Below are positions 2,307 through 58,997 of a DNA stretch of 63,778 nucleotides, piece by piece. Positions within the stretch are counted from its first letter, which is position 1, and each line of letters opens with the position of its first letter. The notes beneath the pieces are model-generated. The model searched no databases and was not told the DNA's origin. It saw nothing but the letters and a program-made list of their open reading frames with translations. Source of the stretch: a virus (lineage: Duplodnaviria; Caudoviricetes); IMG/VR virus record IMGVR_UViG_3300036766_000471, positions 1 through 63,778 of that record; one strand, 5' to 3'. The position numbers and the translations under genes were made by a program.

Positions 2307-2542
2307 CAGGTGAGCCCCACCAGCTTCGCCGCTTCAGGGCTGCTGGTCTTGAAGTACTCGACCACCGACTTCCACTCCACCCAACGCCCGGCACCCAGCC
2401 GCACGCCGTGAATCTTGGGGGGCTTGGAGTCCATCCAGTCGTAGACAGACTGTGCGGTGAAGCCGATCTTCTCCGCCGCCTCCACCGCGGGGACGAACCC
2501 CTTCGCACGCAGTGCCGCCTTTGCTCCTGTTTCTTTCTTCAA
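2306..2542 (-). CDS. small HTH DNA-binding protein (excisionase/AlpA-like)
   Basis: EAAEKIGFTAQSVYDWM helix-turn-helix followed by wing (GVRLGAGRW). Confidence 0.7.
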   Translation of the reverse strand: MKKETGAKAALRAKGFVPAVEAAEKIGFTAQSVYDWMDSKPPKIHGVRLGAGRWVEWKSVVEYFKTSSPEAAKLVGLT

Positions 2543-4184: not shown

Positions 4185-4723
4185 GGACCAGCACCCAGCC
4201 GGTGCGCGGCGAGCAGGGCCTTGCGCGCGGTGACGCTCTTCCGCAGCTCCTTCACCTTGCCGATGTTGTAGACCCCGCCCAGCTCGCGTTGGTTGTGCTT
4301 GGCACCAACGATCGCCCAGTTGGGCGCGTAAGGCACAGCGGAAGCCGTGCGCTGTGGGGGGTCAACGAGACGGACCCCAGCCTTCGCGATGGCGAGCGCC
4401 AAGTGCGTCTCAGGGACCGGGGCGTAGTCACGCCGCTCCATCTTGCTCTTGAAGACAGCCATGACCTGCGCGGGGGTCCGCTGCACTTTCTTCCGCTCCC
4501 ATGGGGCCGGAGTGTTGAGCAGCCTCTCCAGCTTCGGGTTTACCTTCGCGATGGGTGGGAAGTGCTGGTCCATCAGGTTGCGCAGTCGCCGCAGCTGAGT
4601 GAGTGCTCCCTCCCGTGCGTTCTTCCGGGCGAGCCGCCCCTGCTCCGGCTTGAGCCGCCGCAGCTCCTTGGCCAGCCATCGAAGTGAGCTGGTCAGCTCC
4701 GCAGGTGGTGGGGTGAACTTCAT
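4181..4723 (-). CDS. basic hypothetical protein
   Basis: GGAGG RBS; coupled to both neighbours. Confidence 0.65.
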   Translation of the reverse strand: MKFTPPPAELTSSLRWLAKELRRLKPEQGRLARKNAREGALTQLRRLRNLMDQHFPPIAKVNPKLERLLNTPAPWERKKVQRTPAQVMAVFKSKMERRDYAPVPETHLALAIAKAGVRLVDPPQRTASAVPYAPNWAIVGAKHNQRELGGVYNIGKVKELRKSVTARKALLAAHRLGAGP

Positions 4724-6075
4724 TCAGCCTCCTTTGCAACGGGGTTCGACTCCAGTTCGACCACCTCGCCCCAAGGGAACTTGATGTTCCGGTGAGGACC
4801 GCACACCAGCCAGATGACCTTGGTCCCGCGCGGCTTGGGCCCGACATCACCAACCTGTCCATCAGTCACGCAGATCACTAGCTCAGCTCGTTTCGGCATC
4901 CGGGCCAGCATGGCGAAGGCTGGCTTCATGTCCGTTCCGCCTCCGCCCTTCAGTGCCTTGCAGGCTTCCTGCACCGAGCGAATCTTCACCGCGCTGTGCA
5001 CGTCGGCGTCGCAGGCGAAGAAGTCGATGTTCGCTCCGACCGCGGCGAGGATGCCCTTCGTCTCTTCCATCGCTACCCGCAGCTCATCGCTGCCCATCGA
5101 GCCCGAGGTGTCGGCGATGACTGCCACGTGGGGGACCGGCATGCGCAGCGCCGGGAAGACCGGGGAGCCCGTGCCGTACCCGTAGGCACCCTGTCGGCGC
5201 GAAGGTCGATCGTAGCGGTAGTCCCCAGCACCGGGGCGGTACGCCACCGCCGCCTTGCACACCTGCGCCAGCTTTTGCTGCCACGGGATTCGCGGCGTGC
5301 CCAGCGTCTCTTCTGCCCAGCGCACCAGCCCACCGGGCACCGTCCCGCGCCCCTTGCTGGCCTCCTGTCGAACCGCTTCCGCCACCTCGCGTTGGATTCG
5401 CCGCACCTCTGGGAGGGACTTGCCCAGCCCAGCCGGGAGAGCCGCTTCCTCTGGGCTCATCTCGCCACCCGACCCGGAGCCGCACCCCTTCTTGCCGAGC
5501 AGCGGGCCCAGCGTCCCACCGCTTCCCTTCCCTTTGCCTTTCCCCTGACCCTGCCCCTGCCCCTGCCCCTGACCCTGACCCTGACCCTTCTTCCCGTGGC
5601 CCTGCTTCCGCAGCGCCGCGTAGTATTCCTCTGCGAGCTTGCCGTCCTCGCACCCGAAGTCTTTGGGGAGCACGCCCGAGGGCTTGCCAACCTTCTCCGC
5701 CTCCACACCGTCTTCCTCGGTGAACAGCGGGAACTTCGCGCCCGCCGCCAACAAGTCGTCATTGCTCTCAGCGTCACCCGCGAGGTTCCACGTGCGCGGT
5801 TCCGCAGCGCACGCTGTACACCGACCGTGGTGGTCGCGCAGCGGGTGGAGCACCTCGTGGAGCAGCACCCACGCGAGGTTTTCCACCGTCCACTTCTTGT
5901 ACAGCTCGGGGTCCCACATGAGGACCATGCGTGGGGTCACCGCGAGGGTTCCGAACCCCGGCACCGGGTAGGGCACGAGGCCCATCACTCCCGAGCTGAA
6001 GTAGGGCAGCAACCGGCAGGCCATGATGCGCGCGGCGGCGAACCAAGAAGCTGGGTCTTTAAGTTCTGGTGTCAT
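4720..6075 (-). CDS. metallopeptidase-like (HEXXH) plus vWA domain protein (DUF2201-like)
   Basis: LLHEVLH; Gly/Gln-rich linker; DTSGSM MIDAS, GGGGTD, TDG. Confidence 0.85.
   Translation of the reverse strand: MTPELKDPASWFAAARIMACRLLPYFSSGVMGLVPYPVPGFGTLAVTPRMVLMWDPELYKKWTVENLAWVLLHEVLHPLRDHHGRCTACAAEPRTWNLAGDAESNDDLLAAGAKFPLFTEEDGVEAEKVGKPSGVLPKDFGCEDGKLAEEYYAALRKQGHGKKGQGQGQGQGQGQGQGKGKGKGSGGTLGPLLGKKGCGSGSGGEMSPEEAALPAGLGKSLPEVRRIQREVAEAVRQEASKGRGTVPGGLVRWAEETLGTPRIPWQQKLAQVCKAAVAYRPGAGDYRYDRPSRRQGAYGYGTGSPVFPALRMPVPHVAVIADTSGSMGSDELRVAMEETKGILAAVGANIDFFACDADVHSAVKIRSVQEACKALKGGGGTDMKPAFAMLARMPKRAELVICVTDGQVGDVGPKPRGTKVIWLVCGPHRNIKFPWGEVVELESNPVAKEAE
5542..5587. repeat. hexamer tandem repeat encoding (GQ)n linker
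   Basis: CAGGGT/CAGGGG units on minus strand. Confidence 0.85.
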
Positions 6076-6095
6076 TCGCTTCCTTCCATGGTCAC

Positions 6096-6125
6096 AAGGT
6101 ACACAAGAAACACAAGAGAGTCAAG
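6096..6125 (-). promoter_or_regulatory. sigma70-like promoter, repeat copy 1
   Basis: TTGACT-17-TACCTT; 26 bp (6100-6125) identical to 7744-7769. Confidence 0.7.
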
Positions 6126-6312
6126 GACTCGTTTTCAGCAGGAAGAGCAGGTCTTCCCGCGCATCCAACACTGCCTGCCCGAGCGTCCAGCGGCAGTCCC
6201 CTGCGTTGTGCTCGTGCATCAAGGGCCCATGCGCCGGGTCGGCGCACTTGCGGCAACCCGGTACCTCAGCTGTCAGCAACGCCACCAAGTAGCTCAGCGT
6301 GGTCTTCGCCAT
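6121..6312 (-). CDS. small hypothetical protein
   Basis: Fills gap between AAA and vWA genes; CRKC..H..C. Confidence 0.5.
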   Translation of the reverse strand: MAKTTLSYLVALLTAEVPGCRKCADPAHGPLMHEHNAGDCRWTLGQAVLDAREDLLFLLKTSP

Positions 6313-6315
6313 GGG

Positions 6316-7470
6316 TCAGCTCTTCGGGGCGACAAAGCCCGCCACTTTGAGGATGGGGTGGAGCTTTGTGAGTCCTGCGTGCGCGTCCTTCGAGGTGATG
6401 AAGCCCCGCTTCGCGAGCACCATCCCTGCCTGCACCGTCACGTCGGCAGCGTCCTTGGAGATTTCCGCGATGTACCGCCAGAGGACATCGGAGCGGGTCT
6501 TCGCTTTGGACGTTTTGTCCGGGGCGATGATTGCTGCGCATGCCCCGAGGACCGCGGTCGTGCGATCGAGCCGCTTGGGGTCGTGCTTGAAGACCACCTT
6601 CTCGTCGAGCACCTCAACAGGGTCGGGGAGGTCTGAAGCGGTCTGGAACTGAATCAGCTCCGAAGCAGCTCCGATTCCCACGAAGGCCGCGACCAGCTCT
6701 TCAGCGTCGCTCGGTTCCAGCCCGTGGACTTCCGAACCCGCCAGCGCTCGGGTCGCCAGCTCCCACGTGCGGGGGGAGGGCCACGCGCGCCCAGCTTCGG
6801 GAGACTCCGCGATGGGCATCTTGAAGAGCAGGCTGGGGTTGGCTTTGAGGAACCCCGCCACGAGGCCCCGAGCCTTCGCCCATGCTTCCGGCCACTTCTT
6901 CAGCACCTCAGCTTCGAGGTCCGCCGCGTTCAGTGGAGCGCTGTCTTCCGACTCGCCGCCGAGCAGCCAGTTGGCCCATTCCGCCACCGAGGGAGGGTCC
7001 CAAGGCATGTGGCCGAAGCGGTTCGCGAGCGGTGGGCTCAGAGGCCAGCCACCCGCGGCTTCCTCCACCCGGTTCATCATCGCCACGATGCGCACCGTGG
7101 GAGGCATTTGGTACTCACCGACCGCGCCGTCTGTGGCGAGCCGCAAGAGCGCCGCCTGCATCGCTGGGACGTTGGTGTTCAGCTCATCGAGCACCACCAC
7201 CCCGTACTTCTTGTCGCCCAAGTTCTTCGCCCACGCTGCGGGCACGAGGCGGAAGCGATCGTCTTCGAGGCGCGCGAGGCCACCTACGTCCGTGGGCTCT
7301 CGGATGCTGCCGATGATGACCTCAGCGGCGAGGCCGAAGTGCGCGGCTTCGTTCTCCACCCGCTGCGTTTTTCCGTTGCCGGGGGGACCGATGAAAATCA
7401 TGGGGAGCCCCCAGCGCTTCTTCGGGCCCGGCGTGAACCACACAGTCTTCAGGATTCCTCGGACGTTCAT
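6316..7470 (-). CDS. MoxR-like AAA+ ATPase
   Basis: GPPGNGKT Walker A, VVVLDEL Walker B, AMMN sensor, LSPPLANRF, PSPRTW. Confidence 0.9.
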   Translation of the reverse strand: MNVRGILKTVWFTPGPKKRWGLPMIFIGPPGNGKTQRVENEAAHFGLAAEVIIGSIREPTDVGGLARLEDDRFRLVPAAWAKNLGDKKYGVVVLDELNTNVPAMQAALLRLATDGAVGEYQMPPTVRIVAMMNRVEEAAGGWPLSPPLANRFGHMPWDPPSVAEWANWLLGGESEDSAPLNAADLEAEVLKKWPEAWAKARGLVAGFLKANPSLLFKMPIAESPEAGRAWPSPRTWELATRALAGSEVHGLEPSDAEELVAAFVGIGAASELIQFQTASDLPDPVEVLDEKVVFKHDPKRLDRTTAVLGACAAIIAPDKTSKAKTRSDVLWRYIAEISKDAADVTVQAGMVLAKRGFITSKDAHAGLTKLHPILKVAGFVAPKS

Positions 7471-7706
7471 CGGGCGCTCCCGGTTGCCACTGCGTTTGCC
7501 CACGCACGCTGCCCAAGCGGGGTTTTTGGGGTGAGGTCTTCGAGGCCCACCACGATGATGAAGCCCTCGGCGCTCTCATTCACGCACACGCGGACCTCGC
7601 CCTCGGCTTCGAGCCCTTCCTGTCGCTCCATCACATCCACGTTGAACGTGAGCGCTCTCCCGCTCTTCGTGGTCACCGTCAGCAACATCTGGTCTTGAAG
7701 TTCCAT
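7467..7706 (-). CDS. hypothetical protein
   Basis: GGAGG RBS and promoter upstream; ATGA coupling to AAA gene. Confidence 0.6.
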   Translation of the reverse strand: MELQDQMLLTVTTKSGRALTFNVDVMERQEGLEAEGEVRVCVNESAEGFIIVVGLEDLTPKTPLGQRAWANAVATGSAR

Positions 7707-47389: not shown

Positions 47390-48790
47390 TTACTCGCCGT
47401 GCTCCACAATCACAGCGCGCTTGAAGTACGCCGCGTCGCCAGTCGCACCGTCAGTGCGCACAGGCCAGTCGCCGATGAACTTCCACGAGCTGGACACCAT
47501 GTCCTGCAAGCGGTTCAGCGGGGCTCGGATGATGAGCTGGATGCGCTCGGTGAACACGTCGATGCCGTTGTTGGTGATGCGCGGCTCGGCGAGCTTGCCG
47601 GTGATGCCTGCCTCGGTGACGAGGTTGGCGAGGTCGAGGTGGTACTCCATGATTTGCCCCTGACCCGTGAACATCGGACGGTGCACGCGAACACCCGTGG
47701 TCACGCCCGTGTTGAACAGTTCACCCGCGAAGTTGTCGTCCTGCGAGTACGTCGCAGTCAGACCGCCCGTCACCGTCTCCGGCAGGGGGCTCTCGGTGTT
47801 CCGAATGAAGATGGTCCCGAGCAGCACACCGATGCCGAACTGCTTGTACATGTAGTAGTCCGGCATGGACGTGAGCAGGCGCTGGAACTCGGCGTCCGCG
47901 AAGATCTGGCTCTCCGAGGTCGGGTCCATGTGGCAGTGGAAGTACCCGTCCTGATGCTCGGGCACGTTCATGCTGCGCATGCGGGCGCACGCCGCCCGGA
48001 TGTCGGCGAGCCGGAACAGGTCCGAGCTGCCCACGTCGTCCACCTTGAAGCCGCCACCCACGCGCACCAGCGAGGTGCGGGTGTCCGCAATCACGTAGTC
48101 GCGATCGACCACGCTGATGGCAGCACCGTCGAGGGTGATGGTGCCGGGACCGACCTCATCCCCCGCCACGTCCGCGGCGAAGCCGATGACGTTCCGGCTC
48201 AGCTGCGAGCCCGCGAAAATCTTGATGGGGAGCGGGTTGCTGGGGGACACAGCGAGGTACTGCACCGCCGAACCCGCCACGAGGTCCGGGCGCCGGGCCT
48301 TGGTGAAGCCGTTGAGGCGCTTCACGCGAATGGTGTTGGTCGGGCCCTGAGCACCGTCCGCCACGGTCCACCCCGACAGACCGGCGTTGTACAGCCGGTT
48401 GCGGGTGATGCCGTTCAGCGACTGCCCCGCCTGCAAGCCCAGCTGCTGGGCGTTGCGGTAGAACAGGTTCGCGATGGCGACGATCGCGGTCGGCATGTGG
48501 GTGTCGATCGAGCTGGCGTACTGCTGCGCGACCGCTTCCCACTGCTCCGCGCTGAAGCTCTGCGGAACGGGGTCGTTGCCGGGGACCAGCGGCTTCTGCT
48601 GCTTCGGCAGCAGCCCGGTGCCGGTGAAAATCTGCCGGTCGCCGATGTTGGCGGGCCAGAGCACCGGGGTTGCTTCACCGCGGTACAGCAGCCGGGGGAA
48701 CAGCGAGTCGTGGAACGCTCGTTCGAGAATTCCGTCCTGCACCAACGCCCGAATCTCGGGCGACTGGGCGATTACTGAGAAGTCAGGCAT
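47390..48790 (-). CDS. major capsid protein
   Basis: 466 aa, strongly GC3-biased, between scaffold and neck; D.R..R.MNVP, P.NRLQ...SW. Confidence 0.85.
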   Translation of the reverse strand: MPDFSVIAQSPEIRALVQDGILERAFHDSLFPRLLYRGEATPVLWPANIGDRQIFTGTGLLPKQQKPLVPGNDPVPQSFSAEQWEAVAQQYASSIDTHMPTAIVAIANLFYRNAQQLGLQAGQSLNGITRNRLYNAGLSGWTVADGAQGPTNTIRVKRLNGFTKARRPDLVAGSAVQYLAVSPSNPLPIKIFAGSQLSRNVIGFAADVAGDEVGPGTITLDGAAISVVDRDYVIADTRTSLVRVGGGFKVDDVGSSDLFRLADIRAACARMRSMNVPEHQDGYFHCHMDPTSESQIFADAEFQRLLTSMPDYYMYKQFGIGVLLGTIFIRNTESPLPETVTGGLTATYSQDDNFAGELFNTGVTTGVRVHRPMFTGQGQIMEYHLDLANLVTEAGITGKLAEPRITNNGIDVFTERIQLIIRAPLNRLQDMVSSSWKFIGDWPVRTDGATGDAAYFKRAVIVEHGE

Positions 48791-48908: not shown

Positions 48909-49760
48909 CTACACGTGACCGTTGATTCCGCGTGCTCGAAGGAGATCCGCGTACTGCTTCGGGTCCATCTTGCGCGCATCGACTCTCCCGCCCTGCGACT
49001 GCTGGGAGGTCACCTGACCCGGCTGGGGAGGCTTCGGCGCACCCCCTTGACCGATTCCGGTGTTCGCGGGCTGCACCGTTTCTCCGAACAGCAGAGGCTT
49101 CGTCTTCCGAAGTCCATCGAAGAACGCCCGCTCGTCGAACTGCGCAGCCTGCTCGGGGGTCAACTTCTCCACCTCGCGGGTGAGCAGCATGATGCTGTAG
49201 TCCACGTCTTGGACGCCGACTCCAGCCGCGATGGTACGGAGGTGCATCTCCGCCCGAATCGCGTCCACTTCCTGCCGCGCTGAGTCCAGTTCCTTCCGGT
49301 ACTCGGAAGCGGACTGGGCATAGCGGTTGCGCTCGTTGAGGGCCTTCTCCAGATTGCGCTGGAGCGCCATCTCTGCGCGCTGCTGCCCGCGGGTCGCGAC
49401 CTGCCCCGCCTGATTCGCCGCCAAGTCCTCTGGCGTTTCCTCGGGAGGAACCGGCTGCGGCGCTGCCTGTCGTGGGGCGACAGGTGCAGGCGGCTTCTGT
49501 CTCAACTGAGACAGAGCAGAGACGAGATCTGCGTGGTTTTCATACCCCGCGTCCTTCGCCAGCTGGTCCAACCCCGCCTGCCTTCCCTTCGCGAAGGCTT
49601 CATCCTTTTCCCGCTTCATCGCGGAATGGGGAATCATCATCACCTTCGGTTCCTGCGGAGCCTGCTGCTGCTGCACAGGGGCCGGGGGCGGCGCCACTTG
49701 CTGCGTGGGATCACTGCCACCGGGCTGCTGCACTTCTTGCGGCATCACGTCTTCAGGCAT
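48909..49760 (-). CDS. capsid scaffolding protein
   Basis: Pro/Gln-rich coiled coil; L.K.KP.LF; DARKM...Y..L..RGI. Confidence 0.75.
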   Translation of the reverse strand: MPEDVMPQEVQQPGGSDPTQQVAPPPAPVQQQQAPQEPKVMMIPHSAMKREKDEAFAKGRQAGLDQLAKDAGYENHADLVSALSQLRQKPPAPVAPRQAAPQPVPPEETPEDLAANQAGQVATRGQQRAEMALQRNLEKALNERNRYAQSASEYRKELDSARQEVDAIRAEMHLRTIAAGVGVQDVDYSIMLLTREVEKLTPEQAAQFDERAFFDGLRKTKPLLFGETVQPANTGIGQGGAPKPPQPGQVTSQQSQGGRVDARKMDPKQYADLLRARGINGHV

Positions 49761-49964
49761 GTCTTTTTTCCTCGGTACTGTCTCCGACATTCACCGCCGT
49801 CGTCGCGTGGTGAGGTGCCAAAGCCAGCCTGTGTGATTCCCCGCGGTGCGCAGCGGGTACGGTGAAGCGGGGCGGAATCCGCCGCCCCTCGGGAAACCCT
49901 CTTCTTCAGCATCGTGAGCCAAGGCCCTGCTCTTCGCGTTGGCCAGCTCCCCCAGCTTCAGGAA

Positions 49965-50417
49965 TCAGGCGATGTCGAACTTGGCGGTCATGTCCGCGGT
50001 GGGCCCCGCGATGTAGCGGAACACGACGCGAGTGACGGTGTTGGGGAAGGTCACCGTGGTGATTTTCCCCGCGCCGGTCAGCCCAGCGCCGGGAGCCGCG
50101 ATGCCCTGCGCCGAAGCGAGGCCGATGGCGGTGTTCGCGCCACCGGGCGGCAGCAGCGGGGTGGTGGCGCTGTTGCCCACCATGTAGTGCCCGACCGAGG
50201 CCGCGGTGCCTGAGGTGATGACGTGGGCCGAGAGAACGGCGAGCGCGCCCTCGGGCAGCGGCACGGCAGCGACGCCCGTGATGGTGCCGGTGTCATGCTC
50301 CTTCATCTGGAGCAGGTTGCCGAGGTCCACCTTGCGGAGCGCGTCGGCGAGCCGGTTCGGGTCCGCCTCGGTGAGGACCTTCTTGAGAGTCTCGGTTGCA
50401 GTGGTGGTGCTGGGCAT
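49965..50417 (-). CDS. head-associated (decoration-like) protein
   Basis: Ala/Gly/Thr-rich; GGAG RBS. Confidence 0.55.
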   Translation of the reverse strand: MPSTTTATETLKKVLTEADPNRLADALRKVDLGNLLQMKEHDTGTITGVAAVPLPEGALAVLSAHVITSGTAASVGHYMVGNSATTPLLPPGGANTAIGLASAQGIAAPGAGLTGAGKITTVTFPNTVTRVVFRYIAGPTADMTAKFDIA

Positions 50418-50457
50418 GTGCGTTCTCCGTGCTGCGGGGAAAGTTGCGGGGGCCTTA

Positions 50458-50838
50458 CTACGATTTCTCGCCGAGGAAAACTCGGACGGTGGTCAACGTG
50501 CTCGCAACGCGCGTCAAGTCGATAGCGGTGAAGGGCACGGTGTCGGACATCAGGATGAGGTACGTGTCGAACGGAATGGCCTGCGCTGTGCCATCGGCAC
50601 TGGTGAAGCGGGCTTTCACCTTGCCCCCAGTCGCCTTGAGCAAAATGACGTTGGCGTTCACCACACCACCGAAGGGGACAGCAACCGCGGAGTCCACCGA
50701 CAGCGTGAGGTCCGCCAGCTCCTTCACCTTCAGCGTCTTCCCCTCGGAGATTTGCGCGATGACGTTGGGCGCAAATGACAGAGGCTGCCCCAACGGGGCA
50801 GTCTCGTAGCTCCCGAGCAACTTGAAGGAGTCAGCCAT
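50458..50838 (-). CDS. head-associated beta protein
   Basis: Position and composition. Confidence 0.6.
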   Translation of the reverse strand: MADSFKLLGSYETAPLGQPLSFAPNVIAQISEGKTLKVKELADLTLSVDSAVAVPFGGVVNANVILLKATGGKVKARFTSADGTAQAIPFDTYLILMSDTVPFTAIDLTRVASTLTTVRVFLGEKS

Positions 50839-50856
50839 GGGCGTACTGAGCAGCCC

Positions 50857-51054
50857 TTACTTCGAGCCGAGCGGGCCGACCGTGAAGGGGCTCGGGTCCA
50901 CCGAGCCGGGGAGCGACCCGTAGGCGGTCTTGCTCTCCACGTCTTTTTCGTCCGCGGCCTTGTCGGCGTAGGTGCCGGTGGCCTTCTCGATCTTCTCGAA
51001 AACGTTTCCGTCGCCTTCGGTGGCGCTCTTCAACAGGTCGTTCAGGTTGTCCAT
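50857..51054 (-). CDS. small acidic protein D (PF-motif family)
   Basis: GGAG RBS; ends DPSPFTVGPLGSK. Confidence 0.75.
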   Translation of the reverse strand: MDNLNDLLKSATEGDGNVFEKIEKATGTYADKAADEKDVESKTAYGSLPGSVDPSPFTVGPLGSK

Positions 51055-51091
51055 GTTCGGTTCTCCGGTGAAGCGGTGTTGGGGCGGGGGC

Positions 51092-51289
51092 TCAGCTGCC
51101 CTTGATGGTGAACGGCGACGGGTCGAGCGCGGTGGGCATCGCCGCGTCCGGCGCGGGGATGCTCATCGGCTGGTACTTGCCGTGCTCCGCGTCGTAGATC
51201 TCGTTCGAGAGCTTGCCGTCGCCCTTCGAGATGGGACCGCCGTACTTCGAGGTGTTCGGGGTGTCTTTGCCACTCGTCTCGTCGGACAT
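51092..51289 (-). CDS. small acidic protein C (PF-motif family)
   Basis: GGAG upstream; ends DPSPFTIKGS. Confidence 0.75.
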   Translation of the reverse strand: MSDETSGKDTPNTSKYGGPISKGDGKLSNEIYDAEHGKYQPMSIPAPDAAMPTALDPSPFTIKGS

Positions 51290-51294
51290 GGAAA

Positions 51295-51540
51295 TCAGGC
51301 TCCCTTGATGGTGAACGGCGCGGGGATGTCGAGGGGCTTCGCCTCGCCGGGCTGCTTCAGCTCCAGCGGCTTGTAGTCCTGCGTGGGCTGTTCCTTGGTG
51401 ATGGGGTGCCCGTGCCGGATGTCGTAGGCCGGACCCTCATCGAAGTTCGCCGGGTCGTTCTTCTCCATCGCGGTCTGCCGCGGGGTGCGGTGAGAGAGCT
51501 GCTCACTCGCAAGGCTGCCCTTTTTGGTGTCGTCCGCCAT
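51295..51540 (-). CDS. small charged protein B (PF-motif family)
   Basis: AAGGAG RBS, ATG 51540; ends DIPAPFTIKGA. Confidence 0.75.
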   Translation of the reverse strand: MADDTKKGSLASEQLSHRTPRQTAMEKNDPANFDEGPAYDIRHGHPITKEQPTQDYKPLELKQPGEAKPLDIPAPFTIKGA

Positions 51541-51553
51541 GGGTCGTCGCTCC

Positions 51554-51925
51554 TTACTTCGTGGTCTTGAAGGGGGAAGAGTCGGACGATTCCAGCTCGC
51601 CGTCCGCGTCGTTGCGCTGCCACCGCGAGGCGAAGCCTTTGACCTGCGACTGCGAATTGCCGTCGAAGTCGAGCGGGTCGAAGAACTCCGGGTCACTCTT
51701 GCCGCCGACCGTGCCCATCGGGAGACACCCCATGCCGTAGTCGTTCTGCGGCATCGCGCCCTTGTCGCGCGAGTCCACCATCGGCTCCGGCTGCTTCGGG
51801 GACCGCGGCCAGTCGCCGAGGTCAACGCCGGGGTTCTTCATCCGTTCCTGCACACGGAGGTTGTACGTCTCCATCTCTTCGTGGAAACGCTTCTGGTCCT
51901 CGATGTCGATCAGTCGGATGGTCAC
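51554..51925 (-). CDS. small acidic protein A (PF-motif family)
   Basis: GTG 51925, 7 nt after TACACT; ends SDSSPFKTTK. Confidence 0.65.
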   Translation of the reverse strand: MTIRLIDIEDQKRFHEEMETYNLRVQERMKNPGVDLGDWPRSPKQPEPMVDSRDKGAMPQNDYGMGCLPMGTVGGKSDPEFFDPLDFDGNSQSQVKGFASRWQRNDADGELESSDSSPFKTTK

Positions 51926-51932
51926 GTAGTGC

Positions 51933-51961
51933 AGTGTATGGTCACGGCTTCGGAGGCGCAA
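51933..51961 (-). promoter_or_regulatory. promoter, probably leaderless
   Basis: TTGCGC-17-TACACT-7-GTG. Confidence 0.5.
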
Positions 51962-52029
51962 GAATCCGAGGCTTTAGTTTTTCTGCGCCGCTTCGTAGCT
52001 GAGGGTGACCGCGCTGCGCAAGCTCCGCG

Positions 52030-52467
52030 CTACGGGGTGCCGCCGTCCGGCTTCTTCTCGAACGCGGGCTGCGGCTGCTTGGTGACGAGGAACTGGTAGA
52101 TGCCGTCGAGCTTGGCGCTCTGCTCGCGATGATTCTGGTCCTGTCGCTCTTCGAGCTTGTCCATGCGCTTGGTGAGGTCCGCGATGGAGGCGTCCACGCT
52201 TTCCTTGTCGGTCTTCTGCTGGGCGCGCACCGGAGCGACAACCACTTCGGCCTTCTCCGCGGCTTCGGCCTTGATGAACGCAACCACTCCAACAGTGGCG
52301 ATGACCGTCGAAATGATGAGGCCACCGATGGTCTTCAAGACGGCGGAGTTCAGCTCCTTGTGGAGCTGCGCCTTCACCACTGGCGTCTCACCTGTGTCGT
52401 GTTGCACGTCGGACTCACTTCCAAGGGGAACTGGGGGCGGGCTCAGTTGCGGGGTCGGGGTGCTCAT
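52030..52467 (-). CDS. single-TM coiled-coil membrane protein
   Basis: TIGGLIISTVIATVGVVAFI TM, then coiled coil. Confidence 0.65.
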   Translation of the reverse strand: MSTPTPQLSPPPVPLGSESDVQHDTGETPVVKAQLHKELNSAVLKTIGGLIISTVIATVGVVAFIKAEAAEKAEVVVAPVRAQQKTDKESVDASIADLTKRMDKLEERQDQNHREQSAKLDGIYQFLVTKQPQPAFEKKPDGGTP

Positions 52468-52524
52468 GGTCGAGGCGCTCCTGTGCTCACAACGGGAGAG
52501 AACAGTCTAGACCGGCCCCACGTC

Positions 52525-52842
52525 CTACTTCACGTAGACCTTGGCACCCGACGCGCTCACGTAGTACGAGCCGCCGCGTTCGCCGGTTTGCAGATTCTTT
52601 TCTGCCCCAGCTTTTGCTGCGGATTCCATCTCCTTGAGCTTGCCCTTCTGCGCGGAAAGTACCGCCGAGGATGCCTTGGCCAAGCGATCGACCGCCTTCC
52701 ACCGTGGGTCTGAGTTCGGGAACCGTTTGTTCCCGAGCTGTTCCCGCTTCCGGTGAATCGCTCCCCACGTCTCGTCGAGCTTCTTCCTGTCGAAGCTCTT
52801 GAAGCGCTCCGCCAGCTGCTTCAGCGTTGGACCCTTCGCCAT
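52525..52842 (-). CDS. basic protein with PBCV-type basic adaptor motif
   Basis: C-terminal TGERGGSYYVSASGAKVYVK. Confidence 0.65.
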   Translation of the reverse strand: MAKGPTLKQLAERFKSFDRKKLDETWGAIHRKREQLGNKRFPNSDPRWKAVDRLAKASSAVLSAQKGKLKEMESAAKAGAEKNLQTGERGGSYYVSASGAKVYVK

Positions 52843-52852
52843 GGCCTACTCC

Positions 52853-53716
52853 TTATTGCGGCGGTCGAGCGGCGGCGCGTGCCTGCAACGCAGAGGCAGC
52901 GGCGCCCTTCTTGGTCATGTCCGTCTCGCCCGCTGACTTCGGCGCAGCACCTTCCGCGCCGGGCTGCCCATCAGCCGCGATGGGCCCACCAATCATCTTG
53001 TAGAGGTAGGCGGTGACCACGTAGGGCTCTTCGTACTTTTCCTGCACGCCCTCGATGCCGAGCCCAACCGCTTCCGCAGCTTCCTTCCACTTCTCCGGGT
53101 CGAGTGCCCACTTCGGAACGTCCTCGGGACCCTTGGAGTCGGAGCCCGCGATGGTGTCCTCCAGCTCTTGGTCCAGCGCACCCTCCGCCGCCTGAGCCGC
53201 GTCTTCGACCAGCTCGTAAATCTGCATCTCGTGGTCCTCACCGGGATGCGGCGCTTCGGCGTGCTGTTCCGCATGACCGGGCGGCATCGGTGGCTTCATC
53301 GGCATCACCTTCGGGGGCGGCGCCATGCCTCCCGGCTTCGGAGGTGCCGCGTGCGGGGGCGGAGCAGCGTGCTGCGGCGCGGGCGGCGCACCGGAGTGCG
53401 GCGGGGGCATGCTCGCCTTGGGTTTCGGCGGCGGGAGCCCAGCCTGTGGACCAGCGTGCGCACCGGGATGAGGAAGAACAGGTGCGTGCGCCGGGGGCGG
53501 CGGAGCAGCTGCGGCACCGGGCATTGGCGCCGGGGGCGGCGGCAACGGAATCGGTTGCCCGTTCGCATCGAGCAACGGCTGCCCGTCCGGGCCGAGCTGG
53601 TACTGCGGGGGCTTCGCTGCCTGCGCGCGCTTCGCCGCGAGGGCGCCAGCTGCGAGAGGGGTTGCGGCTTTTCTCTTGGAGAAGGCCAGAAGTTTTTGCT
53701 TGTCGAGAACCGGCAT
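52853..53716 (-). CDS. Pro-rich protein with acidic C-terminal domain
   Basis: GGAGG RBS; poly-Pro N-half; PKWA.D.EKW..A...Y.V...LYK.IGG. Confidence 0.7.
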   Translation of the reverse strand: MPVLDKQKLLAFSKRKAATPLAAGALAAKRAQAAKPPQYQLGPDGQPLLDANGQPIPLPPPPAPMPGAAAAPPPPAHAPVLPHPGAHAGPQAGLPPPKPKASMPPPHSGAPPAPQHAAPPPHAAPPKPGGMAPPPKVMPMKPPMPPGHAEQHAEAPHPGEDHEMQIYELVEDAAQAAEGALDQELEDTIAGSDSKGPEDVPKWALDPEKWKEAAEAVGLGIEGVQEKYEEPYVVTAYLYKMIGGPIAADGQPGAEGAAPKSAGETDMTKKGAAASALQARAAARPPQ

Positions 53717-53757
53717 CGTGTCGTGCCTCCGAGAAAACGCGCGTGTACCACACTACT

Positions 53758-54105
53758 TCAGCGCTTGCCCCCATCGTAGGGCTTTGCGTGTCCGGCTTTC
53801 ACCATCTCGTCATTCACGTCCGAACCGCCACCGTTCGTGATGCGGCACAGGTAGCGCCCGTACTTCTCCTGCTCATCTTTCTTGGTGACGACTGTGAGCG
53901 GCGTGGGGGTGAGCAGGCTGGTGAGGTAGTTCATCGCCGCCTTGCCGCGCTCCTTTTCCGCGAGGTCCTTTGAGTGCAGCTCGGGCGCGTTGATTCCCAG
54001 CAAGCGGAAGCGCTGCTCGGTGAAGACGTTGAAGCCGAGATCGATGCGGAAATCCACGGTGTCGCCGTCGAGGACTTTCAGAAGCGTCGCTTGGTAGGTG
54101 AACAT
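53758..54105 (-). CDS. thermonuclease (SNase) family protein
   Basis: KVLDGDTV, RLLGINAPE, EKYGRYL, G.A.PYDGG. Confidence 0.9.
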   Translation of the reverse strand: MFTYQATLLKVLDGDTVDFRIDLGFNVFTEQRFRLLGINAPELHSKDLAEKERGKAAMNYLTSLLTPTPLTVVTKKDEQEKYGRYLCRITNGGGSDVNDEMVKAGHAKPYDGGKR

Positions 54106-54115
54106 GAGCCGAGTT

Positions 54116-55069
54116 CTACACCGGAACGCGGTCGCCGCCCACGTACCGCCAACCCGGAACACCCCAGTCCTTCATCCACGGTGAAAGTACAGCACGATCA
54201 TTCGGACGATTTGGCGGGAAGGCCCAGCTCAACCCCACGAGCGCCTCGGGCACATCGTAGTTACCCTTCTTGTCTGGGAACGGTGCGGTGTCCGGCATGG
54301 TGAACTCGTCGCCGGGCTGCACCACCTGCCCGTGCATCGCGATGGAGTCCACCGCCACCCGATCATCGAGCGGCGCACCAGAGTCGTCGCAGTGCTCTTC
54401 CCACCGCATCATCAGCTCGGGTATTTCCTCCGAAGCCTCCATGATGCCGTCGCGGTGGGTTCCGTTGTAGGCGTAGGCCATCTCGGTGCGCACGATGCGC
54501 TCCCCCTGCCACCACTCACCGTCAATCGCCTCTGCGATGGTGTCGATGACCTCGCTTGGGGCCTCGCCCTTGAGCATCGAGAGAGCCATCTCGCTCTCCA
54601 CGTTCTCCACGATGCGAACACCGTACCGAGCCATGGAGGTTTGATTCGCCCGCAGCATCGTGGAGGCCCGGTTCTGGAGAACGCCCGCGAAGACCGCGGC
54701 CTCTTCGATGGGCAGCGTGATTTCCGCTCCGGTGAAGTGCTTGTGCAACCGCTTCACGTCGGTCACCAACCCGGTGAGCGCCTTCTCCTGCGCCACCTTG
54801 GTGAGCGGCGTCATGTCCCCAGCGAGTCGCTTGGTGATGAGCGCCTGCCCCTCACGCAGCTGCGCTTGCACGATGCGCATCTGGTACGCGGTAAAGGTGT
54901 CGCTCCGCCCGGTCCTGATTGTCTTGGCGATTTTCGCCACGAGCTGATTCTGCGCCTCGTCATAGAGGCGCTTCATCTTCGAGGCAGCATGCCCCGCCAG
55001 CGTCTTCTCCAGCCGGTTACGATGCGTCTGCACCGCTTGGTGAAACACCTTGGGGACGCGCTTGGTCAT
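54116..55069 (-). CDS. Mu gpF-like head morphogenesis protein
   Basis: ERIVRTEMAYAYN, DDRV..D...HGQ, PP.RPNDR. Confidence 0.85.
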   Translation of the reverse strand: MTKRVPKVFHQAVQTHRNRLEKTLAGHAASKMKRLYDEAQNQLVAKIAKTIRTGRSDTFTAYQMRIVQAQLREGQALITKRLAGDMTPLTKVAQEKALTGLVTDVKRLHKHFTGAEITLPIEEAAVFAGVLQNRASTMLRANQTSMARYGVRIVENVESEMALSMLKGEAPSEVIDTIAEAIDGEWWQGERIVRTEMAYAYNGTHRDGIMEASEEIPELMMRWEEHCDDSGAPLDDRVAVDSIAMHGQVVQPGDEFTMPDTAPFPDKKGNYDVPEALVGLSWAFPPNRPNDRAVLSPWMKDWGVPGWRYVGGDRVPV

Positions 55070-56558: not shown

Positions 56559-58433
56559 TTAGACGGTGGGAGGCTGCGGCGCGGCGGGCGGCACCGGGAG
56601 AGCTTCCCCCGGTTGAGGCGGCGGCTGCTCCCCACCACCCAGCATCTGGGAGAACATGTCGGCTTGACCCCCTGCCGCGGCCTCGCGCACCTTGTCGAGC
56701 AAGTCACTCTTGTCTTCGACCTTGAAGTAGGGCGCGACGAACCCGACTGCCGTCTCGTCGTCGATGACGCCCCCCGTGAGCGCTGCCACGGCAGCTGTCG
56801 CGGCCTTGTTCACGTCGTCGAGAGAGGGCTGGAAGTAACCGGGCCACTTCAACGTGATGGTGCCACCAGCGCCGGGGATGCGCTCCTTGGGCACCATGGC
56901 CCCGGTGACATCCTTCTCGTACCGGGGCGGGACCAGCACGGTGCCACGGACGATGGTCGGCTGCTGCGCGCCACCCACGATGCCATCCGTCACCTCACCA
57001 GCACCACCCACGGAGCTGCCGGTGTTGCTCTCAGGCGTCTCCAGCTGCGGCGTCGAGCCCTCCAGCGGGTTGACCTCGGGGCCGGGAGGGAGCTGCGGCG
57101 GCACGAGTTGGGGGGCTTCCTGTGGCGAGATTGACCGAGGCTGGCCCACGATCGTCGCCGCGCGGTACATCATCTCCAGCAGCGGAATGACGCCACGCTG
57201 CCCGTACTGTTCGCGGTACACGTCGGCCTTGGAGAGCATCGCTTGGTACATGCGCTCCACCTCAGTCGCCGTCTTGCCCGCGGTATCCGGGTGCTCAAGC
57301 ACGCACGCCGTCATCTCCAGCACGTTCTTGCGGAACTGCTCTGCCTGCTCCATCGCTGCCTTCGGGCCGCTGGCTTGGAGTTCGAGGTAGCTGGCGCTGC
57401 CATCGGGCACACGGAGGGCGTTGTCGCTGCCCACGCGCACCTCGTTCAACTCCGCCTTGCTGGTGATGACCAGCGTCGGGTCACAGTTCGCGATGATGCC
57501 GCGGTGCGCCTGCGCGATGAGGGCGTCGATTGCTTCCGCCGTCTGGAACGCCGCGGGGGGCAGGTCCGGGTCCCCATCCTCTGAGTCCTGCACCGGGGCG
57601 TTCTGCACCCACACCACCGGGCAGAAGCCGAAGTTGTGCACCGCCTCGCGTGCCACAACCCACTCCGGCTCTTCGCCCTGCTCTACCGCAGCAGGCTCGA
57701 AGAGGGTGTCCTTCTCCTTGTCGATGACGCGCCGGTACCAGAACTCCTTGGTCGCCCACTTGAGCGTCTGCGGGTCGAGAATCTCCTTCGGGTAGCGGTA
57801 GCGCTTCTCCAGCGCCACCAGCTCCATCGAACCGTGCTCCACGAACTCGGGGAAGAGCCACCGCGGGTCGTGAACCTCCACCACCGGCTTGCCGTTCACG
57901 AACTGGAAGCCGATGGCGACGCTGCCCATCGCCCCGCCATAGGTGCGCGCGAGGAACAGCTGCTGCCAGAGACGGGACACCTGCACGACTGCGCGAAGCC
58001 AGTCCTCGGTGTTCGGGTCGCCCTCCACCTTGACCTCGGGGTGCTGCTGCTCGCTGAAGAGCAGGCCCGAGAAGCGGTCCACGATTGTCTTCGGCAGTGA
58101 GTAAGGCGCGGTGGGGCGGCGGAACTTGAGCGGGAACCCAGCGTTTGACTGCTGAGCACCATTGACGAAACCGGGCGGGAGGTAGCCAGCATGCGCCACC
58201 ACCTCCGACGACATGCGATCGAGGTGCTCTCGCCCGTTCCAGTCGAGCTTGCGGCTCTCGTACTGCTGGCAACGGTAGATCGCCCACAGGTGGTTCAGCT
58301 CCTGCTGACGTTCAGTGAGGCCCAGCCGCCCGATGCGCCCCATGGCGTTCTGCGCCATATCCTTCGAGCCGAGTTTGCCCGTGAGGACGTTCACCATGCG
58401 ACCGAGCAAACCGGGAGTTGCGGGCAGACCCAT
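56559..58433 (-). CDS. portal protein
   Basis: 624 aa upstream of gpF; IVDRF..LLF, HNFGFCPVVW, D.DG.PD, W..YF.P. Confidence 0.85.
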   Translation of the reverse strand: MGLPATPGLLGRMVNVLTGKLGSKDMAQNAMGRIGRLGLTERQQELNHLWAIYRCQQYESRKLDWNGREHLDRMSSEVVAHAGYLPPGFVNGAQQSNAGFPLKFRRPTAPYSLPKTIVDRFSGLLFSEQQHPEVKVEGDPNTEDWLRAVVQVSRLWQQLFLARTYGGAMGSVAIGFQFVNGKPVVEVHDPRWLFPEFVEHGSMELVALEKRYRYPKEILDPQTLKWATKEFWYRRVIDKEKDTLFEPAAVEQGEEPEWVVAREAVHNFGFCPVVWVQNAPVQDSEDGDPDLPPAAFQTAEAIDALIAQAHRGIIANCDPTLVITSKAELNEVRVGSDNALRVPDGSASYLELQASGPKAAMEQAEQFRKNVLEMTACVLEHPDTAGKTATEVERMYQAMLSKADVYREQYGQRGVIPLLEMMYRAATIVGQPRSISPQEAPQLVPPQLPPGPEVNPLEGSTPQLETPESNTGSSVGGAGEVTDGIVGGAQQPTIVRGTVLVPPRYEKDVTGAMVPKERIPGAGGTITLKWPGYFQPSLDDVNKAATAAVAALTGGVIDDETAVGFVAPYFKVEDKSDLLDKVREAAAGGQADMFSQMLGGGEQPPPQPGEALPVPPAAPQPPTV

Positions 58434-58442
58434 GGACTTCTC

Positions 58443-58997
58443 CTAGCTCGGCAGCTGCGTGAAGTCTTTGGGCTCCGGGCGCTCGGAAACGTACTTCATC
58501 CCCTTCGCCTTGGCCTTCGTGAACTTGGTGGCTGCCCGGTTCCGCTTCAACAACGAGAGGTAGTCCACGAAGACGATGCCGTCGAGGTGGTCAATCTCGT
58601 GTTGCAGCGCGTGCGCGAGCTTGCCGTCCCCCGCGATTTCAATCTTGGCCCCGTGCTCATCCTGCGCTTCGACCCGCACCCACATCGAGCGCTCCACCAT
58701 CTCGAAGTGCCCCGGCAGCGAAAGGCACCCCTCACGCAAGTGCACCTTGCCCTTGCGCTCCTTGATGACCGGGTTGCAGAGCTTCAACACCTGCCGTGTG
58801 TCCTCAGCGTCCACCAACAGCGTGATGCAGCGCAGAGGGAAGCCCAGCTGCACCGCCGCGAGCCCAGCCCCGCGGGCGTTGAGCATCGACTGCTCCATGT
58901 CGTTGAGCAGCGTTTGAAGCTCAGGGCCGAAGTCGGTGATGCCCTCGCTCTTCCGCTTCAAGCACGAGTCCGGCCAGATGATGATTTCACGAATCAC
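58443..58997 (-). CDS. def: peptide deformylase
   Basis: GAGLAAVQ, EGCLS and QHEIDHLDG motifs all intact. Confidence 0.95.
   Translation of the reverse strand: MIREIIIWPDSCLKRKSEGITDFGPELQTLLNDMEQSMLNARGAGLAAVQLGFPLRCITLLVDAEDTRQVLKLCNPVIKERKGKVHLREGCLSLPGHFEMVERSMWVRVEAQDEHGAKIEIAGDGKLAHALQHEIDHLDGIVFVDYLSLLKRNRAATKFTKAKAKGMKYVSERPEPKDFTQLPS

What the first reader, a model, noticed from the sequence alone, without database searches (positions are those of the whole stretch)
50857..51961. Array of four small disordered proteins sharing a C-terminal PF motif: candidate capsid cargo-loading system
Seen: four consecutive genes (123, 81, 65 and 65 aa) follow a promoter-like site and lie just upstream of two head genes, scaffold and capsid. 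They are charged, low-complexity and otherwise divergent, but end in SDSSPFKTTK, LDIPAPFTIKGA, LDPSPFTIKGS and VDPSPFTVGPLGSK. B and C also share YD..HG, and C and D share GDG......G.Y. Established: T4 internal proteins use a shared capsid-targeting peptide, and HK97-fold encapsulins load cargo through C-terminal peptides (Myxococcus LTVGSL). D's FTVGPL resembles the latter. Inference: a C-terminal tag that loads a variable set of internal or ejected proteins into the head, or mimics a host cargo peptide. No modifying enzyme is nearby, so a RiPP-like role seems less likely.
Basis: partly seen in the sequence, partly recalled or inferred. Interest (0 to 1): 0.78.

Follow-up and report, generated by a model that had tools for sequence, protein, structure and literature searches.

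The report
Small phage head proteins sharing Pro-Phe tail
An uncultured sediment phage and its relatives carry, among their head-assembly genes, a conserved row of three or four tiny floppy proteins that all end in the same Pro-Phe motif, most likely a shared docking handle for head assembly, though what it binds is still unknown.

Summary
Four consecutive minus-strand genes (135 or 123, 81, 65 and 65 aa) end in the stated PF tails, and they are the only 4 of 904 open frames in the window that do. The tail is not a local oddity: 60 of 61 related head modules have 1-6 such small genes in the same place, always just upstream of a jelly-roll protein (p126), an adaptor-like protein (p150), the scaffold and the capsid protein. 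The consensus is D-P-x-P-[F/Y/W]-x-hydrophobic-[G/K] followed by a short basic end.

Three points need correcting:
- B, C and D are paralogs, not unrelated cargo.
- Two genes lie between the array and the scaffold.
- No sigma-70-like promoter was found.

The D-type family has 225 clusters, all small stand-alone proteins with no annotation.

My best reading (about 0.4) is that the tail is a shared short docking motif. It would recruit these acidic, disordered proteins to one site on a procapsid component, as auxiliary core or internal proteins. Neither binding, partner nor packaging is shown. The capsid-plus-D complex prediction gave no answer. The link to encapsulin cargo peptides is a resemblance in pattern only.

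The parts
51554..51961 (-). Gene A, 135 aa from TTG (123 aa if started at GTG 51925). It ends SDSSPFKTTK and shares only the C-terminal box with B-D.
   Evidence: GC3 0.88; conserved with L001 from residue 7; clusters only with L001, L007, L008, L033
51295..51540 (-). Gene B, 81 aa. It has a central YDIRHG box and ends LDIPAPFTIKGA. Its last codons (AAGGGAG) lie 9 nt before the ATG of C.
51092..51289 (-). Gene C, 65 aa. It has a central YDAEHGKY box and ends LDPSPFTIKGS.
   Evidence: (GC3 0.95)
50857..51054 (-). Gene D, 65 aa, the best conserved type and always the last gene before p126. It ends VDPSPFTVGPLGSK.
   Evidence: (GC3 0.92)
50458..50838 (-). p126, a conserved jelly-roll beta-sandwich protein that always follows the array. 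Its role is unknown (candidate decoration or partner).
   Evidence: pLDDT 90.2; TMED1 GOLD Z 10.6, Ena 7a02 Z 9.4, HFTV1 turret 8qpg Z 7.5
49965..50417 (-). p150, a conserved protein with weak fold likeness to phage neck, adaptor and ring proteins. Its own C-terminus also has a conserved aromatic residue 3-6 residues from the end.
   Evidence: pLDDT 85.2; best Z 5.8, weak
48909..49790 (-). Scaffolding protein, 293 aa, with a conserved C-terminal ..EF..LLRKRGL.. end that is unrelated to the PF box.
   Evidence: (phrog_2303, E 6e-4)
47390..48790 (-). Major capsid protein, 466 aa.
   Evidence: phrog_1357; 33% to Streptomyces phage Kromp capsid protein
54116..55069 (-). MuF/SPP1 gp7-like head morphogenesis protein. 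It marks the upstream edge of the variable region that precedes the array.
56559..58433 (-). Portal protein.
   Evidence: phrog_145

Best explanation
A-D are late, head-module genes for small (65-135 aa), acidic-to-neutral, intrinsically disordered proteins. B, C and D are tandem paralogs with two conserved boxes. One is a central Y-D-x-x-H-G-x-Y box. The other is a C-terminal box, (D)-P-x-P-[F/Y/W]-x-[L/I/V/N]-[G/K/L], followed by 2-10 residues of net positive charge. A carries only the C-terminal box.

I read the C-terminal box as a short linear docking motif: an aromatic and hydrophobic anchor plus a basic tail. Through it, all members would bind one common site on a procapsid component. 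My order of preference for that component is the inner face of the capsid protein, then the jelly-roll p126 or adaptor-like p150, then the portal or scaffold core. The proteins would thereby be built into the assembling head as auxiliary core or internal proteins. They would then either leave with the scaffold or be expelled with the DNA.

Shown here: the genes are real and coding; they are paralogs; the cassette and its position are conserved; selection acts on the protein motif; and the tails vary in concert within a genome.

Inferred: that the box binds anything, which partner it binds, and that the proteins enter the head.
For: 1. Position. The order is MuF - variable region - [small PF genes] - p126 - p150 - scaffold - capsid protein, in every related locus that reaches that far. 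60 of 61 modules with the region present have at least one such gene. The counts per module in the catalogue were 2:18, 4:16, 3:13, 1:6, 5:3, 6:1, 0:3. A few rows are false positives, some loci are truncated, and several are duplicate records.

2. Motif conservation. Among 145 distinct small proteins, P at -1 is found in 145 (by construction of the catalogue). The aromatic residue is F 134, Y 7, W 4; P at -3 is found in 74 and D at -4 in 45. Position +2 is L/I/V/N and +3 is G/K/L.

3. Protein-level selection. All four Pro codons are used at -1 and -3, and both Phe codons are used. No Rfam family reaches threshold in 49500-53000.

4. Charge pattern. The tail after the aromatic residue has a net positive charge in 125 of 139 proteins. 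The body is net negative in 93 of 139.

5. Fast evolution around fixed boxes. Between the window and L001, synonymous versus non-synonymous codon changes are A 19/45, B 10/31, C 7/21 and D 17/14, against 107/39 for the capsid protein.

6. Concerted variation. Tails of paralogs within one genome resemble each other more than tails shuffled between genomes within the same array position: 0 of 2000 shuffles reach the observed value. For example, L069 has PYEIK/PYEVK/PYEIK and L039 has RR in all four.

7. Tight operon. The median spacing to the next gene is 10 nt.

8. Precedents for terminal docking peptides on HK97-fold shells. Encapsulin targeting peptides use two hydrophobic residues around a Gly plus C-terminal Lys on an acidic patch (PMC7925596, passages read). 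T4 and P1 have capsid targeting sequences (PMC9024508, passages read).
Against: No binding, partner or packaging is shown.

The bearers are one small paralogous family, with no enzymes or diverse cargo. A tag that loads only its own family is odd for a cargo system, and the C-terminal box may simply be part of the family's fold-upon-binding core.

One relative (L054) has p126, p150, scaffold and capsid protein but no such gene, so the array is not indispensable.

The acidic bodies differ from the basic internal proteins of T4 (recalled).

No prohead protease was found in the window, so no processing step can be proposed.

The within-genome similarity of tails could come from gene conversion, recent duplication or Lys/Arg codon bias rather than from a shared receptor.

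The last codons often overlap the next gene's ribosome-binding region (89 of 145 gaps are 15 nt or less). This may explain part of the K/G richness of the tail.
Confidence: 0.4

Rival explanations
1. External cement or anchor peptides. The small proteins lie on the outside of the shell, or link the jelly-roll protein p126 and/or p150 (as decoration or turret-like proteins) to the capsid. The PF tail would add a strand to, or plug a pocket of, p126 or p150.
For: The array always directly precedes p126, and D is often translationally coupled to it, with gaps of 0-20 nt. p126 is a jelly-roll sandwich with fold likeness to self-assembling Ena pilins (7a02, Z 9.4) and to a tailed-virus turret protein (8qpg, Z 7.5). 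The HFTV1 turret sits on capsid hexamers (PMC12494034, passages read). The alternating F-x-hydrophobic pattern suits a beta strand.
Against: The Z values lie in the range that common jelly-roll folds give (note). The role of p126 is unknown: its viral structural neighbours are all uncharacterised. Adjacency in a phage operon is weak evidence for binding. No fused forms were found.
Confidence: 0.2
2. Transient assembly chaperones or regulators for p126/p150 or for the scaffold. They would act in the cytoplasm and not end up in particles.
For: The position in the operon and the tight coupling fit this reading. So do the disordered, fast-evolving bodies with fixed boxes. One relative does without them, as expected for accessory factors.
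Against: Three or four paralogs kept in parallel across the clade is a lot for a chaperone. There is no similarity to the scaffold (hhalign probability 0.08).
Confidence: 0.12
3. Mimics of a host short linear motif. They could copy the conserved FtsZ C-terminal tail or the SSB tip, and would be delivered or made late to hijack a host hub protein.
For: The tail of window protein B (LDIPAPFTIK) resembles the E. coli FtsZ tail DYLDIPAFLRKQAD (PMC4117426, passage read). Disordered proteins with a terminal motif are typical mimics.
Against: The LDIPA stretch is peculiar to B of this phage and of L007; L001 has SDTSAPF. The family motif has Pro directly before the aromatic residue in all 145 proteins and a polar residue after it, whereas FtsZ has P-x-F-L-R-K. 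The aromatic residue is the last residue in only 3 of 145, unlike the SSB tip (the SSB motif is recalled). The genes are fixed inside the late head operon. The host is unknown, so no target could be compared.
Confidence: 0.06
4. Upstream small reading frames whose translation only tunes expression of p126 and the downstream head genes. The peptides themselves would have no function.
For: Gaps to the next gene are short (median 10 nt). Shine-Dalgarno-like AAGGGAG lies inside the last codons of B.
Against: The motif is conserved at the protein level with all synonymous codons in use. A second conserved box lies in mid-protein. There are 225 clusters of constant size. GC3 is like that of real genes.
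Confidence: 0.04

Closest known systems
Encapsulin (family 1) C-terminal targeting / cargo-loading peptides, e.g. T. maritima NTGGDLGIRK and M. xanthus PLTVGSLRRGG (PMC7925596)
   Same: Both are short C-terminal peptides on the end of a flexible region, with hydrophobic anchor residues spaced around a Gly and basic residues at the very end. The bearers are encoded upstream of an HK97-lineage shell gene, and several different proteins share one peptide.
   Different: The conserved GSL is absent; the D-type tail has G-P-hydrophobic and the A-C types have no third hydrophobic residue. An invariant Pro-aromatic pair has no counterpart in encapsulin peptides. The shell is a tailed-phage capsid protein with a separate scaffold, portal and tail. 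Three genes lie between the array and the shell gene. The bearers are tiny disordered paralogs, not enzymes. Binding is not shown.
Capsid targeting sequences of phage T4 internal proteins (IPI-III, Alt) and of P1 DarB (PMC9024508; PMC3012670 seen in listing only)
   Same: In both cases a short shared peptide marks several proteins for the inside of the phage head.
   Different: Those tags are N-terminal. The T4 tag is removed by the prohead protease (recalled) and sits on unrelated proteins, including enzymes. Here the motif is C-terminal, no protease gene was found, and the bearers are paralogs.
C-terminal shell-binding ends of scaffold-type proteins: P22 scaffold, HK97 protease tail (Duda et al. 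2013, cited in PMC9024508, not read) and SaPI1 CpmB competing with the 80alpha scaffold (recalled)
   Same: A C-terminal, partly basic end docks a flexible protein to the inner face of the capsid protein. Small competitors can share the same end.
   Different: This phage's own scaffold ends in a different conserved motif (..EF..LLRKRGL..), and the families are unrelated.
T4 prohead core proteins gp67 and gp68 (recalled)
   Same: These are small proteins encoded between the portal and the scaffold and capsid genes, and they are built into the prohead core.
   Different: No sequence relation was tested or is known. The comparison rests on gene position and size only.

Membership tests
Encapsulin family-1 cargo-loading peptide | The peptide lies at the extreme C-terminus of the cargo, after a flexible linker. 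| tested here: met
   The aromatic residue lies 3-12 residues from the C-terminus in most of the 145 proteins. The bodies are predicted to be disordered.
Encapsulin family-1 cargo-loading peptide | Conserved G-S-L core, with hydrophobic residues around a Gly and terminal Lys/Arg (PMC7925596). | tested here: not met
   GSL is absent. The D-type tail has F-x-[LIV]-G-P-[LMI], and the A-C types have F-x-[LIV]-K or F-x-N-L-K. Only the general pattern (hydrophobic, Gly, basic end) is shared.
Encapsulin family-1 cargo-loading peptide | The shell protein is an encapsulin with no portal, tail or scaffold. | tested here: not met
   The shell gene matches a phage major head protein (phrog_1357) and annotated phage capsid proteins. 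Portal, scaffold and tail sheath genes are present. None of the 56 capsid proteins gave a Pfam encapsulin hit.
Encapsulin family-1 cargo-loading peptide | The peptide binds a pocket on the inner face of the shell protomer. | not testable with these tools
   No result here can be used for or against binding. A binding assay or a particle structure is needed.
T4-type capsid targeting sequence | An N-terminal leader shared by unrelated proteins and removed by the prohead protease. | tested here: not met
   The motif is C-terminal. The bearers are paralogs. No protease family was found in the window, but the record is only about 72% complete.
FtsZ conserved C-terminal peptide (mimic) | The pattern D-[IV]-P-x-F-[LM]-[RK]-[RK], with one residue between Pro and Phe and a hydrophobic residue directly after Phe (E. 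coli DYLDIPAFLRKQAD, PMC4117426). | tested here: not met
   Pro directly precedes the aromatic residue in 145 of 145 proteins. Position +1 is mostly K/A/T/V and the hydrophobic residue comes at +2.
SSB C-terminal tip (mimic) | An acidic run ending in [IL]-P-F as the very last residues (recalled). | tested here: not met
   The aromatic residue is the last residue in 3 of 145 proteins. The tail after it is net positive in 125 of 139.
Phage scaffolding protein of this clade (phrog_2303-like) | Sequence relation to the scaffold or to its C-terminal shell-binding end. | tested here: not met
   hhalign of the D-type profile against the scaffold profile gives probability 0.08.
Any catalogued protein family (Pfam, PHROGs) or solved structure | A significant profile match. 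| tested here: not met
   A-D have 0 families in PHROGs and Pfam at E 0.01 or better. No PDB sequence matches at E 0.1 or better. All 103 relatives are unnamed or 'hypothetical', with no Pfam domain.

The most novel reading that the evidence does not exclude
The Pro-Phe tail is a true capsid-loading peptide of a tailed phage that works like an encapsulin cargo peptide. It would plug a conserved pocket on the inner face of the HK97-fold capsid protein and load a family of small disordered proteins, in many copies, into the procapsid. This would be a living phage counterpart of encapsulin cargo loading, and a portable C-terminal tag for packing proteins into phage heads.
Probability: 0.15. Interest if true: 0.75.

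Novelty: new variant of a known kind. Interest (0 to 1): 0.5.

Why it matters
If the tail is a docking handle, it defines a simple, portable C-terminal address of about 8-12 residues for a whole clade of uncultured phages. It would also give a testable case of how tailed phages recruit small accessory proteins to the head. C-terminal examples of this are scarce, and a link to encapsulin cargo loading has been proposed but not seen in a phage.

Whatever the mechanism, the work defines a previously unannotated protein family. It has 225 clusters at 50% identity, two conserved boxes and a fixed place in a conserved head module. It also shows that two neighbouring conserved head genes (a jelly-roll protein and an adaptor-like protein) have no known role.

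Tried and rejected
- Complex prediction of the capsid protein (alignment A4) with protein D (alignment A3). The verdict was 'no answer', with score 0.00 in two runs, and the controls were not folded. This is neither for nor against binding.
- Atlas look-ups for p126 and p150 gave only unnamed viral clusters.
- Foldseek against the PDB gave no match at E 0.001 or better for p126 or p150.
- PDB sequence searches with profiles of the capsid protein, D, p126 and p150 gave nothing significant.
- Searches for fused or longer forms of the D family found none. The one long hit (P0130, 843 aa) is an unrelated GTYKD repeat protein. P0116 (99 aa) is two copies in tandem.
- A search for the cassette next to a different capsid family found none. 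The degenerate DNA pattern for PKAPDPSPF gave 11 loci, 5 of them new. Four of the five carry the same capsid family; the fifth, a short locus, shows only p126 and MuF.
- Host: only two short metagenome-bin contigs carry the capsid gene, one labelled Acidimicrobiaceae and one Armatimonadetes. This is too weak to name a host.
- Cultured relatives: the best is Streptomyces phage Kromp, at 33% capsid identity, and it has no such array.
- Expression. One metatranscriptome library holds short contigs over parts of the array: 51442-51592 with 1 differing letter, and 51155-51311 with 6 differing letters and 8 gaps. It also covers the capsid and scaffold genes. The tool warns that DNA can be present in such libraries, so transcription is not shown.
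- Parts of the stretch without cover in those runs say nothing.
- RiPP, arbitrium-like signal peptide and secretion readings were set aside. There is no modifying enzyme, receptor or signal peptide nearby, and the genes are fixed inside the head operon.
- Earlier notes of this scan list other 'shared tag on head cargo' findings in other phages. They concern different motifs and were not used as evidence.
Full report
**What the window is.** The window is a 63,778-base virus record, 63.8% G+C and about 72% complete. Nearly all genes lie on the minus strand. The head and tail genes are recognisable:
- portal, 56559-58433;
- MuF/SPP1 gp7-like protein, 54116-55069;
- a staphylococcal-nuclease-like gene, 53758-54162;
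- scaffold, 48909-49790;
- major capsid protein, 47390-48790;
- neck protein and tail sheath further on.

No prohead protease family was found.

| Gene | Coordinates | Length |
|---|---|---|
| A | 51554-51961 | 135 aa from TTG; 123 aa from an internal GTG |
| B | 51295-51540 | 81 aa |
| C | 51092-51289 | 65 aa |
| D | 50857-51054 | 65 aa |

- Their third-position G+C is 0.88-0.95, like that of the surrounding real genes.
- The quoted C-termini are exact.
- PF[TK][IVT] in the last 16 residues occurs in 4 of 904 stop-to-stop frames of at least 40 aa. Those four are exactly these genes.
- All four fall on the disordered side of a charge-hydropathy plot, with pI 4.4-5.8. The neighbouring p126, p150 and capsid protein fall on the folded side.

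Three details of the finding need correcting:
- Two conserved genes (126 aa at 50458-50838 and 150 aa at 49965-50417) lie between D and the scaffold.
- The sigma-70 consensus scan found no promoter-like site in 49700-52700.
- B, C and D are not 'otherwise divergent'. They are paralogs: BLASTP gives B-C E 2e-6 and C-D E 5e-5. A-B gives only E 0.071.

**Relatives.** The capsid protein brought in 80 viral loci at 56-92% identity.
- Gene order is conserved: MuF, a variable stretch of about 2 kb, the small genes, p126, p150, scaffold, capsid protein.
- I built a catalogue of plus-strand frames of 35-190 aa that end within 1.7 kb upstream of p126, have third-position G+C above the locus mean, and carry Pro-aromatic in the last 15 residues. 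It gave 166 frames (145 distinct) in 61 modules.
- Three modules scored zero. L052 does have such genes and was missed because its anchor was misplaced. L061 has one, ending DPLPYKG. L054 truly has none: only 147 bases separate an acidic 179-aa protein from p126.
- So 60 of 61 modules carry the array. Several loci are duplicate records, some are cut short, and a few catalogue rows are false positives.
- Five further contigs found with a DNA pattern for PKAPDPSPF carry p126 and MuF of the same kind. Four of them also carry the same capsid family; the fifth is too short to show it.
- The cassette was therefore never seen with another capsid type.

**The motif.** Centred on the aromatic residue:

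| Position | Residues (of 145 distinct proteins) |
|---|---|
| -4 | D 45 |
| -3 | P 74 |
| -2 | S 49, T 20, A 18 |
| -1 | P 145 (by construction) |
| 0 | F 134, Y 7, W 4 |
| +1 | K, A, T, V |
| +2 | L, I, N, V |
| +3 | G 39, K 33, L 27 |
| +4 | K, R, G, P |

- The chain ends 3-12 residues after the aromatic residue in most proteins.
- The tail after the aromatic residue is net positive in 125 of 139 proteins. The body is net negative in 93 of 139.
- All four Pro codons and both Phe codons are used at the fixed positions, so conservation is at the protein level.
- The last codons often overlap the next gene's ribosome-binding region: the median gap is 10 nt, and 89 of 145 gaps are 15 nt or less. 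In the window, the AAGGGAG in B's last codons lies 9 nt before C's ATG. This may explain part of the Lys/Gly richness of the tail, but not the Pro-Phe core.

**Family structure.**
- By BLASTP single linkage, 136 of 166 frames form one component. It holds the B, C and D positions and some first-position genes. The window's A clusters only with four close relatives.
- The D type, always last before p126, aligns over its whole length. It has a G-Q-G/D box, a Y-D-A-x-H-G-x-Y box and the tail ..LPxxxMPKAPDPSPFxLGPxxxGGR.
- A profile of 37 D-type proteins found 225 representatives at E 0.001 or better among 1.84 billion cluster representatives, 89 of them at E 1e-10 or better. The 150 best hits listed are 44-99 aa long apart from one spurious repeat protein. 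One 99-aa hit is a tandem double.
- None of 103 relatives in the larger collection has a name other than 'hypothetical', and none has a Pfam domain.
- A-D have no PHROG or Pfam match and no PDB sequence match.

**Mode of evolution.**
- Between the window and its closest relative L001 (capsid protein 92% identical), the small genes change fast outside the boxes:

| Gene | Synonymous | Non-synonymous |
|---|---|---|
| A | 19 | 45 |
| B | 10 | 31 |
| C | 7 | 21 |
| D | 17 | 14 |
| p126 | 41 | 31 |
| capsid protein | 107 | 39 |

- Tails of paralogs within one genome resemble each other more than expected. None of 2000 shuffles of tails between genomes, within the same array position, reached the observed similarity. 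Examples are L069 (PYEIK, PYEVK, PYEIK), L039 (RR in all four) and L070/L075 (x-L/I/V-G in all three).
- This fits a shared binding site that co-evolves with its ligands. It could also come from gene conversion, recent duplication or Lys/Arg codon bias.

**The neighbours.**
- p126 folds with high confidence (pLDDT 90.2) into a jelly-roll sandwich.
- Its best structural matches are GOLD domains (7rrm, Z 10.6, rmsd 2.1 over 87 residues), Bacillus Ena pilins (7a02, Z 9.4) and, lower, the turret protein of the archaeal tailed virus HFTV1 (8qpg, Z 7.5). Its viral look-alikes are all uncharacterised.
- These values are in the range that common sandwiches give, so the fold is informative but the role is not.
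- p150 (pLDDT 85.2) has only weak matches (Z 5.8 or less). Many of these, and most of the top rows, are phage neck, adaptor or ring proteins, as in the Atlas look-up.
- p150 too ends with a conserved aromatic residue 3-6 residues from its C-terminus.
- The scaffold ends in a different conserved motif (..EF..LLRKRGL..) and is unrelated to the D family.

**Interpretation.** The following features all fit a short linear docking motif shared by a small family of head-associated proteins:
- a flexible acidic body;
- an invariant Pro-aromatic anchor;
- a hydrophobic residue two positions on;
- a Gly or Lys, and a basic end;
- a fixed place in the late head operon;
- concerted variation of the tails within a genome.

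Precedents exist for such peptides on HK97-fold shells. Encapsulin targeting peptides bind through two hydrophobic residues around a Gly and C-terminal Lys on an acidic patch, and their genes precede the shell gene (PMC7925596, passages read). T4 and P1 load internal proteins through terminal tags (PMC9024508, passages read). MuF-type proteins and their fusions are thought to be packaged and injected (PMC5512222, passages read).

I therefore favour recruitment to a procapsid component as auxiliary core or internal proteins (0.4). Binding to p126 or p150 on the outside is the main rival (0.2).

The encapsulin link is a likeness of pattern in the D-type tail only. The GSL core is missing, the Pro-aromatic pair has no counterpart, and the shell is a phage capsid protein.

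The resemblance of B's tail to the FtsZ tail (PMC4117426, passage read) is peculiar to this phage's B and does not fit the family motif.

**Limits.**
- No cultured relative exists. The best is Streptomyces phage Kromp at 33% capsid identity, and it has no array.
- The host is unknown.
- No virion proteome is available.
- The phage occurs in sediment metagenomes. A second study holds pieces at 99-100% identity.
- Short contigs from one metatranscriptome library cover parts of B, A, the scaffold and the capsid gene. This does not prove transcription.
- Binding, partner and packaging all remain to be shown.

Noticed in passing
window 58443-58997 (-): The phage encodes a peptide deformylase (Pfam Pep_deformylase, E 1.4e-41; phrog_2890), directly downstream of the portal gene.
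   Followed up: no
window 52525-52842 (-); also L006 4163-4459, L011 3608-4690: A basic 105-aa protein (pI 10.2) ends in GGSYYVSASGAKVYVK. Relatives keep G-G-x-Y-[YF]-x-x-x-S-G-x-K-V-Y-[VI]. From memory this resembles the PBCV basic adaptor domain, but there was no Pfam hit at E 0.01 or better.
   Followed up: partly
window 52853-54162 (-) and the matching stretch of L001-L080: The roughly 2 kb between MuF and the array is variable. Here it holds a nuclease (a homologue was found in only 1 of 80 loci) and a Pro-rich protein with an acidic half. Other loci hold extremely acidic proteins, for example runs of D/E at the C-terminus in L004, L063 and L073.
   Followed up: partly
window 49965-50417 (-) and homologues (alignment A5): p150 also ends with a conserved aromatic residue 3-6 residues from its C-terminus (..D-M-T-A-x-F-A/D-x-x; PF in L014, L015 and L061). 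It may use the same kind of anchor as the small proteins.
   Followed up: partly
L054 4233-5311: One relative has p126, p150, scaffold and capsid protein but no small PF gene. Only 147 bases separate a 179-aa acidic protein from p126.
   Followed up: yes
protein P0116 (99 aa): One D-family member is two copies fused in tandem. Only the second copy keeps the MPFVL tail.
   Followed up: no
window 4720-7503 (-): A DUF2201 metallopeptidase/VWA-like protein sits next to an AAA_5 (MoxR-like) ATPase in the non-structural part of the phage.
   Followed up: no
window 520-3713 (-): A ResIII/DEAD helicase, a ParB_N protein and a protein with a weak sigma-70 region 2 match lie together. The phage may bring its own sigma factor, which would explain why no sigma-70 consensus promoter was seen near the array.
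   Followed up: no
window 52030-52467 (-): The 145-aa protein just upstream of A has an apparently hydrophobic, membrane-like stretch by eye (no transmembrane prediction was run). It ends ..QPQPAFEKKPDGGTP, a looser P-x-F-x-K-K ending. tblastn found no homologue in the 80 loci.
   Followed up: no
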